Shown here: positions 30,001 to 64,000 of the stretch, in pieces
Position numbering within the stretch: position 1 is the first letter of the stretch
How the letters are laid out: each line of letters begins with the position of its first letter
Origin: Styela clava
Taxonomy: Eukaryota
Length of the DNA: 64,000 nt
Assembly (NCBI RefSeq): GCF_964204865.1
Contig: NC_135263.1
Coordinates: forward strand, 2,418,001 to 2,482,000
Direction of reading: 5' to 3'
Program-made: the position numbers

Positions 30001-33000
30001 TCTGTCGCATTCTCGTAAAAGACTCACCGAGACGCTTAATTTGCCGCGATAAACGTCAACGTCTTCCATGTGCTTCACAGCTTCAAACCACTTAACTTCG
30101 GGGCTTTTTCTTGTCTACAATAACAAAATAAACAATCATGATATAGCGGAGTCGGAAAATTTGCACCCAGCTGCGACTCAAAACTCCGATTATTTTAAAA
30201 TATGAATCCGATACAAAAAAATTAATCCCAACTCTGGCGTTTTGTCGACTCTTTCGAATATACATCGAAAAATGTTGTAATATAAAAAGATAACGTCATC
30301 ATTTAAAAATTAATCCCGACTCTGGCGTTTTGTCGACTCTTTCGAATATACATCGAAAAATGTTGTAATATAAAAAGATAACGTCATCATACAGAATAGT
30401 TACGCATGGTATAAAAATTGACGTCATAATGCAAATACATAAATAATACAAAAAGTTTCAATAATTACGACGTCATAATGCAAAAAAGTTTTTATGATTT
30501 TAAAAAAGACATCATAAAAAAAAATTGAATAAGATTACGCCATAATACAAAAAGTTTCAATAATTACGACGTCATAATACAGATTTTATGATTTCGAAAA
30601 AATTTAAGTCATAATATAAAAAGATGAAGTAATAACAAGCGATGAAGACGTATCACAGTTTTTAAATAATTATCATCGCATATCGAAATGACTTTAAATA
30701 AACCATGGTATGATATGTCGGTCGCCCAAAAACAAGTTAACAGAATACTGAGGACGTTTCTCACCTGTTTCTTACCCAAGGTTAATGCCTGTTGGAGAAC
30801 AGCTTTGTCCTTTGTTGTTAATTTTGACTTACATACGCCTTGACAGTTTGCCAAGTTGAGTTCTTTGGAGATTCTTCCTTTGGCCAATAATTCGTGTAAG
30901 TGGATGAAAGCTGTAGTGTTGAGAGTACAGCCATTCAAATTGACAATCTTCAACTGAAAGCATTTGAAAAAAAACAAGATAACAGTGCTATATATGAACA
31001 CGAAAACTGAAACGACGTATGTTATTAATGTCGTTTAGTTATATTGTTAATATTTATAGATACATTATAACTATTTAACTGTGCAAAAGCCAGGATGTGA
31101 GATGTGCGTATCACTGGATAAGGATTTACTAGACAAGGGGAGTGCAACCTATACAAATAAATAGGTGAAAACGCGGGTCGGCCTTTATTCAACATAGGCT
31201 ATCTAGTAGTTGCAGGCTTAAAAATTTGGATTATTGATCTTATGATAGGCGCTGTTCGCTTCGCACAAGCTAGTTGTTAGGGCAGTATAAAGTCATGGGC
31301 AAAAATAAAAAGTCGCACCCCCGCTTTCGTACAGTTCAAGTAGTTTATATATGTGCATAAATAAGTATCATAGTAATTATAAAAAAGTGAGGAATATTAA
31401 TAATACAGCGAATACGAAGCAAACTTCCTTCCCAGGTACGACAAAGTTCGTCATCGGGCACGAAATGCTCCGCGATTTAGAAACGTTGCAATAATATATT
31501 ATATGATATATATGATGTACGATATATATCACTATTTATTTACCGATGTTTTTACCTATGCCGTTTAGTTAATAGTATTACTTAATATTTATGCACAAAT
31601 TATAAACTGTACAAAATCCGGAGTGCGAATTGTTCGGAACACTGGGTCAGGGGTGGGCAACCCGTGGTAGGCGTGCCAAACTTGGCACGCGAGCCCATTT
31701 ATTCGGCACGCGAGTGAGGCCTCAGAAACGAGATAATTCTTCTTTAGATAAAACGTTTCGAGACTCTAAATTATATGATGAAATTCGGTGTTCGTTTATT
31801 CATTATATATCGTTTGTTAATAATCCGCTCTTTATTTAAATTCATTTTGTCCTTTCATGACATATGACCACAATAAAAAATATTATGACATAACAAATGA
31901 GTGGGCTTTCGAGATATTTTGTCGAGAAGAGCGCAGCACTCATTTGGCTATACTCTAGCGTAATACCAGTATAGTTCATCTGTGCCATCTTTTTCTATGT
32001 TCATGCAGTTCTACAGCTCATGTTGGTTAGAGTTACTTGCTAACTTACTGTTATAAATTGATTTCAAATGAAATATTAGCGATTAGAGAATGGAATACAA
32101 GAGAGAAGTGCAGAAAACGAACTATTGCGTGATTGGGATGTCATTTCCGAAAATTTTTCGTGTCTTAAAAACTTTGCAACTGCATTACTCTCCATGTTTT
32201 CATCTACATATGCTTGTTAATCTCTGTTCTCAGGTATGAACTTTATTAAGTCTCGTAATGGGAGTAGCCTGAAAGATGAAACCAGTAGTTCGTGTATTCC
32301 TTTGAAATTTACAAAATACAAACCCAATGTAAAATCTCTATCTGCGGTAATGCTGCAGCAGAAGTCTCACTGATATTGGATAGGAAAAGTAATCGAATCT
32401 ATTTCGGACTGATATTTTCCCGAATCGTGAATCTGTCTGCACGCGAGAGAATTTTGTCGTTAAATTTAGCCGATTTTGACACGCGAGCCGAAAAAGGTTG
32501 CCCACCCCTGCACTAGATAATGATCTATTACAATATTTATTTACTCATCTTTATATGTGTTTTACTTATCCGATTCACACTTCAAACTAGGCTCTAAGCA
32601 GTCACTGATTCGTGAAGAACTCTTTTAAAAAGAGGAATTTCATCGGTTGGGCATGACCCATGACCTTCCTAATTTATTACAACCAGGGTGAGGAAGTTAA
32701 TTCTTATTGTATGAACTTTATTACTCTGAAAAAAAAAATGTAAGGAGCTCTCACTTCTCTTTGGCAGTTCAATATTCCGGCCAACAACCTTTCAGAGTTT
32801 TCTTCGTTAAGTTCTCTTGGAACTTCGATGGAATTGACAACCCCGCGGGTGATAAGGTCTATAATAGCATCAACACACTCATTGTTGTGAACGTTGTCCA
32901 TCAAGTTCAAATGTACGCTCTGAAATTATAAAATAGGAATATTTAGAGAAGATATGCTCAATGAATAAACTGAATAAAATAGGCTGAGGGCTCCAGAAGG

Positions 33001-63000: not shown

Positions 63001-64000
63001 TGAGAATTGGTAATTTGGTTGTATTAAGTTGGGAATGATATTTTTGGTTGTATTAAGATGGGAATTGAATAGATGGTTTTATTAAAATGAGAATTGGTTC
63101 TATTAATACAACCAAATACAACATTCCCAATCTATACCATTCCCATCTTAATACAATCAAATATTTAATTTCCATCTTAATACAACCAAATATCCTATCT
63201 TATCTCAGTACGACCAATTATCCAATTCCCATCTTAATACAACCCAATATCCAATTTTCATCTCAATATAACCAAATACTATATTCGCATCTCAATACAA
63301 CGAAATATCCTTTCCCAACTTGATACAGCCAAATATCCAATTCTCCTATCTCATCTCCGGAACAACCAAACACAACATTTCCACTTAATACAACCAAACA
63401 TATCATTCGCTTCTTAATACAACCAAATATGATTTTCTCATCTTAATACAACCAAAAACCTTGTCCCATCTTAATACAATCAAATATCTAATTTCCATCT
63501 CAATACAACTAAACATCCCATTCTCCCTATTCAAATACACTATTCCCATCTTAATACAACCAAACTGTACTTCCCTATCAGTGAATCCACCCAAATTCGA
63601 GGATTCTAGCGTATGAACCGGGAAACACAAGAACGACTATCGTATTTCCAACGTCTAACACAATAGGCCAACTGGAAGGAATCAAAGTCATACTTACTTT
63701 CAAGCTAGTATTCTTCTGTATTACTCCAAGAACTTTTGATAGCAAACGTGCATCTTTGAAACATTCTTTTAATTCAATTTTCTCGAGTTTTGAATATTCC
63801 AACACTTCCAAAAGTTTTTCAAAAGACTCCTGAGGTACAGAGCTCAAAGATAGTTCTCTTCCACACTTATGTGGTGCAATAGAATGAAGAGTCTGTATAT
63901 TGTACACGTTTCTCGCCTTGCTGTCTCGCTGGGCATATCTTGATTGTATTTCATTGAACGCCATTTTGCTATGAGCGCTACCGCGAGTTTATATTAGTTT

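What the first reader, a model, noticed from the sequence alone, without database searches (positions are those of the whole stretch)
30028..63964. LRR head resembles a detached NLR-type LRR module
Seen: LxxLxLxxC/N-like strands spaced about 27-30 aa apart (ELSLSSVP, LEKIELKEC, LKNVHLDIQHN, VNSVEVP, MKILNLNGSTL, INKFLNLSNC) and a terminal KLKIEWF/PEVKWF strand. Exons B and C are phase 0-0 and carry about two repeats each. Established: RI-like LRRs of NLR genes are commonly encoded by symmetric exons of one or two ~28-aa repeats, and sit C-terminal to a NACHT domain. Here the LRR begins at the initiator Met (similar MxFxx starts in genes 1 and 3; in-frame stop upstream in gene 1). Inference: an NLR-derived or PRAME-like stand-alone LRR.
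Basis: partly seen in the sequence, partly recalled or inferred. Interest (0 to 1): 0.65.

Follow-up and report, generated by a model that had tools for sequence, protein, structure and literature searches.

The report
Sea-squirt genes with leucine-rich-repeat heads
Tandem sea-squirt (Styela clava) genes of unknown function probably start with a short horseshoe-shaped leucine-rich-repeat domain and continue into a long floppy tail; the domain is an ordinary member of a known fold class, and nothing shows that it came from an immune NLR receptor.

Summary
The window is Styela clava DNA. Exon A is 100% identical to RefSeq LOC120341694. Three head-to-tail paralogues lie on the minus strand:
- gene 1, 63964 to 48360;
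- gene 2 (LOC120341133), from 35866;
- exon A of a third gene, 789-517.

They fall on the six predicted beta strands of a 28-29-residue beta/alpha solenoid in two AlphaFold models (head pLDDT 65-93). Those models match ribonuclease-inhibitor-type LRR structures: axonemal LRR proteins, NLRP1-LRR, Tmod/Lmod, RanGAP and RI.

The KLKIEWF/PEVKWF "terminal strand" is not supported. It lies in a low-confidence cassette exon.

Sequence-level support is weak:
- no Pfam LRR hit;
- hhalign probability 1.7%;
- RanGAP1 at E 0.024.

The LRR is not stand-alone. About 365 more residues follow, with basic NLS-like clusters, a Q/P-rich disordered tail and an acidic FEDA end.

No NACHT domain is found in the proteins or the window. 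Phase-0 symmetry holds for 15 of 17 introns of gene 1, so it is not specific to the LRR exons.

An NLR or PRAME origin is untested rather than shown. The family appears restricted to Styela. Interest is modest.

The parts
63698..63964 (-). Gene 1 (LOC120341694) exon A, 89 aa: start codon, N-terminal cap, LRR 1-2 and the first two residues of LRR 3
   Evidence: 100% identical to P0001/P0002 residues 1-89. ATG at 63964, in-frame TAA at 63991-63989, GTAAGT donor. Predicted strands E34-41 and E62-66.
61551..61715 (-). Gene 1 exon B, 55 aa, phase 0-0: LRR 3-4. Skipped in RefSeq isoform X2
   Evidence: AG/GT sites read. Exact match to P0002 residues 90-144. Absent from P0001. Strands E90-94 and E117-121.
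59155..59343 (-). Gene 1 exon C, 63 aa, phase 0-0: LRR 5-6 and the long closing helix
   Evidence: Strands E145-149 and E172-177, helix H191-211.
58174..58263 (-). Gene 1 exon D, 30 aa, phase 0-0: conserved K(I/L)xWFxxVxYIGExDI motif. Not an LRR strand in the models
   Evidence: pLDDT below 50 over residues 211-232. The equivalent exon is skipped in isoform X2 of paralogue LOC144432162 and present in X1.
48360..57583 (-). Gene 1 exons 5-18: conserved FxxxIRWxFNRxT...V.R.G module, basic NLS-like clusters, Q/P/H/N-rich disordered tail and acidic C-terminal SDxxxFEDA motif
   Evidence: Exact mapping of P0002 residues 238-603. pLDDT below 50 almost throughout. Conservation in alignments A1 and A4.
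35588..35866 (-). Gene 2 (LOC120341133) exon A, 93 aa
   Evidence: Exact match to P0004 residues 1-93. In-frame TGA three codons upstream of the ATG, GTAAGT donor.
32755..32919 (-). Gene 2 exon B, 55 aa, phase 0-0
   Evidence: Strands E95-99 and E121-125 in model ma373a30f2957.
30765..30953 (-). Gene 2 exon C, 63 aa, phase 0-0
   Evidence: Strands E149-153 and E176-181.
30028..30114 (-). Gene 2 exon D, 29 aa (PEVKWF motif). This is the low end of the finding's range
   Evidence: pLDDT below 50 over residues 212-249, no secondary structure assigned over 214-240.
26641..29336 (-). Gene 2 further coding exons of RefSeq model P0004 (residues 241-396). The last two lie inside a recent tandem duplication
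517..789 (-). Gene 3 exon A (MNFKQ...NVNLQ, GTGAGT donor). The rest of the gene lies outside the window
   Evidence: Identity to gene 1 exon A is 42-44% and to gene 2 exon A 41%. Sequence read.

Best explanation
The range holds the 5' parts of two members of a small, tandemly arrayed Styela clava gene family. A third member starts at 789.

Protein layout:
- about 33 residues of N-terminal cap directly after the annotated Met;
- six beta-strand/alpha-helix repeats of 24, 28, 29, 28, 28 and about 28 residues, of the ribonuclease-inhibitor (RI) LRR class;
- a long closing helix;
- an optional 30-residue WF-motif exon;
- a short conserved module with basic, NLS-like clusters;
- about 300 residues of Q/P/N/H-rich disordered tail;
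- a conserved acidic SDxxxFEDA end.

Shown:
- gene structure and identity to the RefSeq models;
- repeat register, conserved across paralogues;
- predicted RI-type solenoid;
- absence of NACHT or any other Pfam domain.

Inferred mechanism:
- The LRR head is a protein-binding surface.
- The basic clusters take the protein into the nucleus.
- The disordered tail and its acidic end recruit or tether other factors. The protein is therefore an adaptor, not a receptor of the NLR kind.
- Because nearly all introns are phase 0, whole exons can be dropped in frame. RefSeq models already skip exon B (two repeats, giving a four-repeat head) in gene 1 and the WF exon in a paralogue. This would tune the size of the binding surface.

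I put the LRR fold at about 0.8 and the nuclear-adaptor mechanism at about 0.35.
For: Identity and structure:
- Exon A is 100% identical to XP_077976128.1.
- Isoform X1 (P0002) maps exon for exon to 63964-48360.
- P0004 maps to gene 2.
- Splice sites are canonical.

Fold:
- In the AlphaFold model of P0002, residues 13-210 have pLDDT 65-89. The elements are E34-41/H45-57, E62-66/H72-84, E90-94/H102-113, E117-121/H128-141, E145-149/H157-168, E172-177/H191-211.
- The model of P0004 shows the same pattern, with block pLDDT 73-93 for residues 21-180.
They include 9y6s_4e (1.9e-5), NLRP1-LRR 4im6 (6.6e-5, TMt 0.61), Rna1p 1yrg, RI 2bex/4peq and CARMIL 4k17.
- With the second model the top hits are Lmod/Tmod, a designed LRR, and NLRP1-LRR at TMt 0.65 and rmsd 3.9 A.

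Other leads:
- The Atlas feature search on residues 1-240 gives LRR_6, TMOD-LMOD, RanGAP and LRRC31 clusters at 0.91-0.95.
- phmmer with exon A against 1.84 billion representatives finds, besides two paralogues, one LRR_6 protein (P0005, E 1.9e-4, four stretches).
- A periodic LxxLxL chain is rare in shuffles, and the repeat alignment is in register in 4 of 4 sequences.

Tail:
- pLDDT is below 50.
- Basic clusters and the FEDA end are conserved between gene 1 and LOC144432162.

Cassette exons.
Against: Sequence-level evidence for an LRR is weak:
- No Pfam LRR model is hit by any exon or by P0001-P0004, even at E<=1.
- hhalign of the family profile against the LRR_6 protein P0005 gives probability 1.7% and E 0.028.
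- The PDB profile search gives only RanGAP1 at E 0.024.
- Exon-by-exon PDB searches give nothing below E 0.07.
- The Asn/Cys position of the repeat is poorly kept, and the strict motif count is at chance.

The models have limits:
- They rest on only 5 sequences.
- Whole-chain confidence is low (mean pLDDT 48.8 and 57.9, pTM 0.33 and 0.47).
- In one search only 1 match has E<=1e-3, and some non-LRR alpha/beta proteins (pyruvate kinase, agmatinase) appear near E 1e-2.
- Atlas shared-feature counts (138-162 of 256) are below the 170 typical of same-family hits. The tool notes that a third of shuffled proteins also get ten concordant families.

Function:
- Nuclear localisation, binding and splicing regulation are untested. 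The isoforms are RefSeq predictions whose transcript support I could not see.
- The concave-face x positions are as conserved (0.80) as the rest (0.76) among 4 sequences. That gives no clue to a ligand.
Confidence: 0.6

Rival explanations
1. One reading: the head is an LRR module that descends from an NLR (NACHT-LRR) gene and lost its NACHT part.
For: - The NLRP1 LRR domain is the best match by target-normalised TM-score for both models (0.61 and 0.65).
- Many other NLRP/NLRC chains are listed there.
- LRR 3 plus LRR 4 make 57 residues (29+28), the RI/NLRP super-repeat size.
- Exon skipping removes whole repeats.
Against: - No NACHT or other NLR domain is found in P0001-P0004 or in any of the 147 ORFs of 66 aa or more in the window.
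- The LRR is N-terminal, not C-terminal.
- Non-NLR RI-class proteins score as well or better: axonemal LRR proteins rank 1-2, Lmod/Tmod rank 1-2, and RanGAP, RI and CARMIL also appear.
- The only PDB sequence hit is RanGAP1.
- The exon register differs from the NLRP description in PMC4105827 (passage): exons are 165 and 189 nt and start at the strand.
- Phase-0 introns run through the whole gene.
- NLRP1's high TMt largely reflects its matching size (198 residues).
Confidence: 0.12
2. The head is a diverged relative of the RanGAP or tropomodulin/leiomodin type of short RI-class LRR domain, in which an LRR domain is joined to disordered or acidic regions.
For: - RanGAP1 is the only PDB sequence match: E 0.024 with the family profile and 0.07 with exon C.
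- Rna1p appears.
- Lmod/Tmod are the top hits.
- Atlas ranks 2-3 are RanGAP-fragment and TMOD/LMOD clusters.
Against: - The E-values are not significant, and only about 48 residues align.
- No Pfam match to LRR_TMOD-LMOD-type or RanGAP1_C models was reported.
- RanGAP has more repeats than the six seen here. That count is recalled, not tested.
Confidence: 0.1
3. PRAME-like: a member or analogue of the PRAME family of nuclear LRR proteins.
For: - One Atlas cluster (rank 10, score 0.92) carries an automatic name that includes 'PRAME C-terminal domain'.
- The protein has NLS-like basic clusters.
Against: - No Pfam hit of any kind.
- No PRAME structure appears among the listed Foldseek matches.
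- The LRR spans only about 180 residues and is followed by a long disordered tail. In PRAME the LRR fills the protein; that description is recalled, not tested.
Confidence: 0.03
4. Not an LRR at all: a leucine-rich amphipathic segment that AlphaFold forces into a solenoid from a five-sequence alignment.
For: - No LRR HMM hit.
- hhalign probability 1.7%.
- Strict motif count at chance.
- Moderate pLDDT and a shallow alignment.
Against: - Two separately run models give the same six units, in register with the conserved hydrophobic pattern.
- The periodicity is rare in shuffles.
- Independent language-model features point to LRR families.
- phmmer picks an LRR_6 protein out of 1.84 billion representatives.
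Confidence: 0.12

Closest known systems
LRR domain of human NLRP1 (PDB 4im6, 5y3s, 8zgd)
   Same: It is a short RI-class solenoid of similar size. 187-195 columns superpose at TMt 0.55-0.65 and rmsd 3.9-6.3 A.
   Different: - Sequence identity is 15-20%.
- In NLRP1 the LRR follows a NACHT domain. Here it sits at the N-terminus, and no NACHT exists in the protein or the window.
- The exon register differs from that described for NLRP genes.
Ribonuclease inhibitor (PDB 2bex, 4peq, 1a4y, 1dfj), prototype of the RI-like LRR class
   Same: It has a 28/29-residue beta/alpha repeat and a horseshoe with helices on the convex side.
   Different: - RI has many more repeats: its chains are 456-460 residues, against about 180 here.
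- The Asn/Cys ladder is poorly kept in the Styela family.
- Pfam LRR_6 does not detect it.
RanGAP1 / Rna1p (PDB 9b62_G, 1yrg)
   Same: - It is the only solved protein with any sequence-level match (E 0.024).
- It has an N-terminal RI-class LRR domain followed by an acidic region. That architecture is recalled.
   Different: - The match is short and not significant.
- No RanGAP1 C-terminal domain is found.
- GAP function was not tested.
Tropomodulin / leiomodin LRR domain (PDB 4rwt, 4z8g, 1io0, 4z79)
   Same: It is a five-to-six-repeat RI-class LRR closed by a helix. It gives the top Foldseek hits for the gene 2 model and Atlas ranks 2-3.
   Different: - In Tmod/Lmod the LRR is C-terminal to actin- and tropomyosin-binding parts (recalled).
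- TMt is 0.39-0.45 at rmsd 7 A or more.
Axonemal LRR proteins of the 96-nm repeat (PDB 9y6s_4e, 8j07_5, 9fqr_MA)
   Same: They give the best Foldseek E-values for the gene 1 model, 1.9e-5 to 2.2e-4.
   Different: - Identity is 12-16%.
- The chains are not named in the output, so I could not say which proteins they are.
- No other axonemal feature was tested.
ANP32 family (recalled, not tested)
   Same: The architecture is analogous: a small N-terminal LRR head, an NLS, and a long low-complexity tail with acidic character.
   Different: - ANP32 repeats are of the short (about 22-24 residue) class, not RI-like.
- No similarity was found or sought in any call.

Membership tests
NLR (NACHT-LRR) proteins | A NACHT nucleotide-binding domain in the same protein. 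NLRs are defined as NACHT plus terminal LRRs in the passage of PMC8662601. | tested here: not met
   No Pfam family at E<=1 other than chance-level hits in P0001-P0004. None of the 147 window ORFs of 66 aa or more reaches a Pfam cut-off.
NLR (NACHT-LRR) proteins | LRRs placed C-terminal to the NACHT domain | tested here: not met
   The LRR starts about 33 residues after the annotated Met. In-frame stops lie 8 codons (gene 1) and 3 codons (gene 2) upstream. Upstream exons cannot be excluded for gene 1, because the window ends 36 nt upstream of its ATG.
NLR (NACHT-LRR) proteins | LRR exons of 171 nt, each holding one central repeat and two half repeats (NLRP genes; passage of PMC4105827) | tested here: not met
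   The exons are 165 and 189 nt and start at the first residue of predicted strands, residues 90 and 145.
RI-like LRR class (Pfam LRR_6) | Match to the LRR_6 profile above its cut-off | tested here: not met
   No LRR model is reported for any exon or full-length member. hhalign against an LRR_6 protein gives probability 1.7%.
RI-like LRR class (Pfam LRR_6) | Repeat length of 28-29 residues with an LxxLxL strand followed by a helix | tested here: met
   Units of 28, 29, 28 and 28 residues are in register in 4 of 4 sequences. Strand and helix alternate in both models.
RI-like LRR class (Pfam LRR_6) | Curved beta/alpha solenoid that superposes on solved RI-class structures | tested here: met
   Foldseek gives 22 matches at E<=1e-3, all those listed being LRR proteins, and the same families for the second model. 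This rests on predicted models of moderate confidence.
RI-like LRR class (Pfam LRR_6) | Conserved Asn or Cys at the end of the strand motif (LxxLxLxxN/C) | tested here: inconclusive
   Cys is present in LRR 2 and Asn-Cys in LRR 6. The other repeats carry S, Q or E at that place, with Asn two residues later in LRR 3-4. The strict motif count is at chance.
PRAME family | Similarity to PRAME-type LRR profiles or structures | tested here: not met
   No Pfam hit. No PRAME chain is among the listed Foldseek matches. The only trace is an automatic cluster name in the Atlas.
RanGAP | RanGAP1 C-terminal domain and significant similarity over the whole LRR domain | tested here: not met
   Only 48 residues align, at E 0.024. 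No RanGAP1_C hit is found. GAP activity is not testable here.

The most novel reading that the evidence does not exclude
The family is a tunicate-born set of LRR-plus-disordered-tail proteins. In it, all-phase-0 exon architecture is used to make heads with different repeat numbers (six or four LRRs, with or without the WF motif) from a tandem gene cluster. That would be a splice-tuned recognition system working without a NACHT engine. Its origin could be a captured NLR LRR block or an independent one.
Probability: 0.08. Interest if true: 0.6.

Novelty: new member of a known kind. Interest (0 to 1): 0.3.

Why it matters
The result assigns a probable fold (an RI-class LRR) to a group of RefSeq "uncharacterized" Styela clava proteins that no Pfam model recognises. 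In the searches I could run, these proteins have no relatives outside the species.

It also shows that two arguments for an NLR origin do not discriminate here. Symmetric exons run through the whole gene, and the structural likeness is shared with non-NLR families.

If the family proved to be a splice-variable recognition module it would bear on how tunicates build recognition repertoires. As it stands, it is a lineage-specific LRR adaptor candidate of modest interest.

Tried and rejected
- **Pfam.** Searches on exon ORFs, on RefSeq members and on all 147 window ORFs of 66 aa or more found nothing above cut-offs.
- **Homologue searches.** Exon A against longer proteins found only the gene's own record. 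P0003 residues 1-235 found only the three Styela loci. Exon C against longer proteins at E<=10 found only itself. phmmer with exon A over 1.84 billion representatives gave 3 hits.
- **PDB sequence searches.** Exon by exon, nothing fell below E 0.07.
- **hhalign.** The family profile against P0005 gave probability 1.7%.
- **Atlas search of residues 236-340.** No usable hit.
- **Rfam and tRNA scans.** Both gave 0 hits.
- **Window self-comparison.** It found exon A in three copies. Otherwise it returned mostly repeats.
- **Upstream regions of genes 2 and 3.** blastn found no similarity.
- **Literature.** A search for the three LOC names found 0 papers. 'Styela clava' plus 'leucine-rich repeat' gave 9 papers, of which 8 were listed; none is on this family by title or abstract. 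A search on RI exon phases found 0 papers.
- **Considered and rejected.**
  - A large NACHT-type exon hidden in the window: the longest ORF is 141 aa.
  - The WF motif as a seventh LRR strand.
- **Not done.** Complex prediction was not run, because no partner is claimed.
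Full report
**What the window is**

The 64-kb window has 36% G+C, no N and a CpG observed/expected ratio of 1.07. It is therefore not vertebrate-like, and I do not take it for human.

The translation of exon A (63964-63698, minus strand) is 100% identical to RefSeq XP_077976128.1, [quoted passage not shown] (P0001, 548 aa). Its cluster mate is isoform X1 (P0002, 603 aa).

**Gene models**

Gene 1:
- Reading the DNA gives exon A at 63964-63698 (89 aa), B at 61715-61551 (55 aa), C at 59343-59155 (63 aa) and D at 58263-58174 (30 aa).
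- Each has AG/GT sites, and all boundaries fall between codons.
- P0002 maps exactly onto these four exons and onto 14 further exons down to 48360.

Gene 2:
- It is LOC120341133 (P0004, 396 aa).
- It has the same plan: A at 35866-35588, B at 32919-32755, C at 30953-30765 and D at 30114-30028, with more exons to 26641.

Other members:
- A third exon A lies at 789-517. It is 41-44% identical to the other two. The rest of that gene is outside the window.
- A fourth paralogue, LOC144432162 (P0003, P0007, P0008), lies on the same 20-Mb contig but not in the window.
- P0006, an older 703-aa record under the name LOC120341133, is only 66-89% identical to the window's gene 2 exons.

On the spliced model:
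- I searched my own spliced model exon by exon.
- I left out the step of joining the exons myself.
- Where a whole protein was needed, I used the database's own records by id.

**The observation**

Six of the eight quoted strands coincide with predicted beta strands.

| Motif | Residues | Predicted strand |
|---|---|---|
| ELSLSSVP | 37-44 | E34-41 |
| LEKIELKEC | 60-68 | E62-66 |
| LKNVHLDIQHN | 88-98 | E90-94 (spans the A/B junction) |
| VNSVEVP | 117-123 | E117-121 |
| MKILNLNGSTL | 145-155 | E145-149 |
| INKFLNLSNC | 172-181 | E172-177 |

The gaps between motif starts are 23, 28, 29, 28, 27 and 40 residues.

Tests against chance:
- The strict LxxLxLxx[N/C] pattern is no more frequent than in shuffles.
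- A chain of loose LxxLxL motifs at 26-30-residue spacing is reached by only 100, 2, 166 and 184 of 20000 shuffles in the four full-length sequences.
- The repeat alignment is in register in all four.

KLKIEWF and PEVKWF lie in exon D, where both models have pLDDT below 50 and no strand.

**Is it an LRR?**

Evidence for:
- AlphaFold2 on a five-row alignment gave six strand/helix units followed by a long helix (H191-211) for P0002. The head has pLDDT 65-89.
- P0004 gave the same pattern, with block pLDDT 73-93 for residues 21-180.
They include two axonemal chains (1.9e-5 and 5.5e-5), NLRP1-LRR 4im6 (6.6e-5, TMt 0.61), designed LRRs, CARMIL, Rna1p, RI, NLRC4 and NLRP3.
- For the second model the top hits were Lmod/Tmod, a designed LRR, NLRP1-LRR (TMt 0.65), FBXL17 and RI.
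- The Atlas feature search named LRR_6, TMOD-LMOD, RanGAP and LRRC31 clusters at 0.91-0.95.
- phmmer with exon A found one LRR_6 protein at E 1.9e-4.

Evidence against:
- No Pfam LRR model is hit.
- hhalign against that LRR_6 protein gives probability 1.7%.
- PDB sequence searches give only RanGAP1, at E 0.024 with the profile and 0.07 with exon C.
- The Asn/Cys position is poorly kept.
- The alignments behind the models are shallow.
- In one search only one match reaches E<=1e-3, and some non-LRR alpha/beta enzymes appear near 1e-2.
- The Atlas shared-feature counts are in the range the tool gives for distant relatives or chance.

I rate an RI-class LRR fold at about 0.8.

**What follows the head**

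- The protein does not end after the head.
- Exon D carries a conserved K(I/L)xWFxxVxYIGExDI motif. In LOC144432162 it is present in isoform X1 and skipped in X2.
- Next comes a conserved FxxxIRWxFNRxT...V.R.G module. It is predicted as a low-confidence hairpin.
- Basic clusters follow (for example KKRNK...KKPK and KKRSKK).
- The tail is Q/P/H/N-rich with pLDDT below 50.
- The conserved end reads RHP...SDxxxFEDA.
- An Atlas search of residues 236-340 gave no usable hit.

**NLR-derived?**

- No NACHT or other domain is present in the proteins or in any of the 147 ORFs of 66 aa or more. The longest ORF is 141 aa.
- NLRs are defined by NACHT plus terminal LRRs (passage of PMC8662601). The family is therefore not an NLR.
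- The exon argument is weak. Of the 17 introns of gene 1, 15 are phase 0, including those in the disordered tail.
- Exons B and C start at the first residue of a predicted strand. NLRP exons are described as 171 nt with one central and two half repeats (passage of PMC4105827).
- In favour, LRR 3 plus LRR 4 make 57 residues, and NLRP1-LRR has the best size-normalised TM-score. However, that domain is simply the same size, and non-NLR families score equally well.
- Descent from an NLR is neither shown nor excluded.

**Distribution**

- The four searches I could run found only Styela clava proteins, apart from P0005.
- No paper mentions the three loci.
- Tunicates are noted for fast sequence evolution in the passage read from PMC8662601, which cites Berna and Alvarez-Valin 2014. 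Missing relatives may therefore reflect divergence or missing proteomes.
Supplements were closed, and none was needed.

**Mechanism (inferred)**

- The head is an LRR protein-binding surface.
- The basic clusters direct nuclear import.
- The disordered tail with its acidic end serves for recruitment.
- In-frame cassette skipping is made possible by the phase-0 introns. RefSeq models already skip exon B (gene 1 X2, leaving four repeats) and exon D (paralogue X2). This would vary the head.
- The concave-face positions are no more variable than the rest among four sequences (0.80 against 0.76). Nothing therefore points to a diversifying receptor surface.

**Verdict**

The finding is a real but ordinary feature. 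It is a divergent RI-class LRR head in a lineage-restricted, tandemly duplicated gene family of unknown function. It is already annotated as gene models but not as LRR proteins. The "stand-alone, NLR-derived or PRAME-like" reading is not.

Noticed in passing
window 62080-63097 and 63139-63522 (intron 1 of gene 1): There is a large minisatellite of a 28-29-bp unit, with about 35 copies and then about 13 copies. The second block is in the opposite orientation, since its consensus is the reverse complement of the first. It produces long spurious ORFs in several frames.
   Followed up: partly
window 60157-60590 (intron 2 of gene 1): There is a tandem array of a 97-bp unit, 4.5 copies, with 68% matches.
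   Followed up: no
window about 22785-24883 and 24896-27484: A recent tandem duplication of about 2.1-2.6 kb is present at 98.5% identity. The second copy carries an extra 489-bp x2 array at 25284-26272. The last two coding exons of RefSeq model P0004 (residues 341-396) match both copies.
   Followed up: partly
window 900-23000 (downstream of gene 2's annotated end): Neither P0006 nor P0003 finds a match to the C-terminal part of the family tail (beyond about residue 513 of P0006, including the FEDA end). Gene 2 may therefore be truncated, decayed or mis-modelled at 396 aa.
   Followed up: partly
window 9711-9904, 28125-28258, 41579-41806, 51900-52200, 55181-55414 and shorter pieces at 33112 and 42366: An interspersed repeat of about 190 bp occurs at 82-89% identity in both orientations, sometimes as inverted pairs, in introns and between genes. 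It has no Rfam or tRNA match.
   Followed up: partly
window 53094-53026 and 52615-52547 (gene 1 tail): Two neighbouring 23-aa exons (VGHQGQSQPPSPWQISGPHMKSP and VGHHGQLQPPSHWHSPRPHVNPP), with their flanks, are copies of each other. This is an internal exon duplication in the disordered tail.
   Followed up: no
window 790-909 (upstream of gene 3's ATG): Gene 3 has a second in-frame ATG 16 codons upstream. A pyrimidine-rich acceptor-like site (ttttcttgtttgacag) lies 27 nt before the MNFKQ start, and the nearest in-frame stop is 37 codons upstream. Its start is therefore less secure than those of genes 1 and 2.
   Followed up: no
gene 1, 63964-48360: Nearly the whole gene is built of codon-aligned exons: 15 of 17 introns are phase 0. 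Any of these exons could be skipped in frame. RefSeq isoforms of this gene and of LOC144432162 skip three different ones.
   Followed up: yes
window 2671-2962 and 30217-30390: Two near-perfect two-copy tandem duplications are present, with units of 144 bp and 88 bp at 98-99% matches. The second lies just upstream of gene 2's exon D.
   Followed up: no
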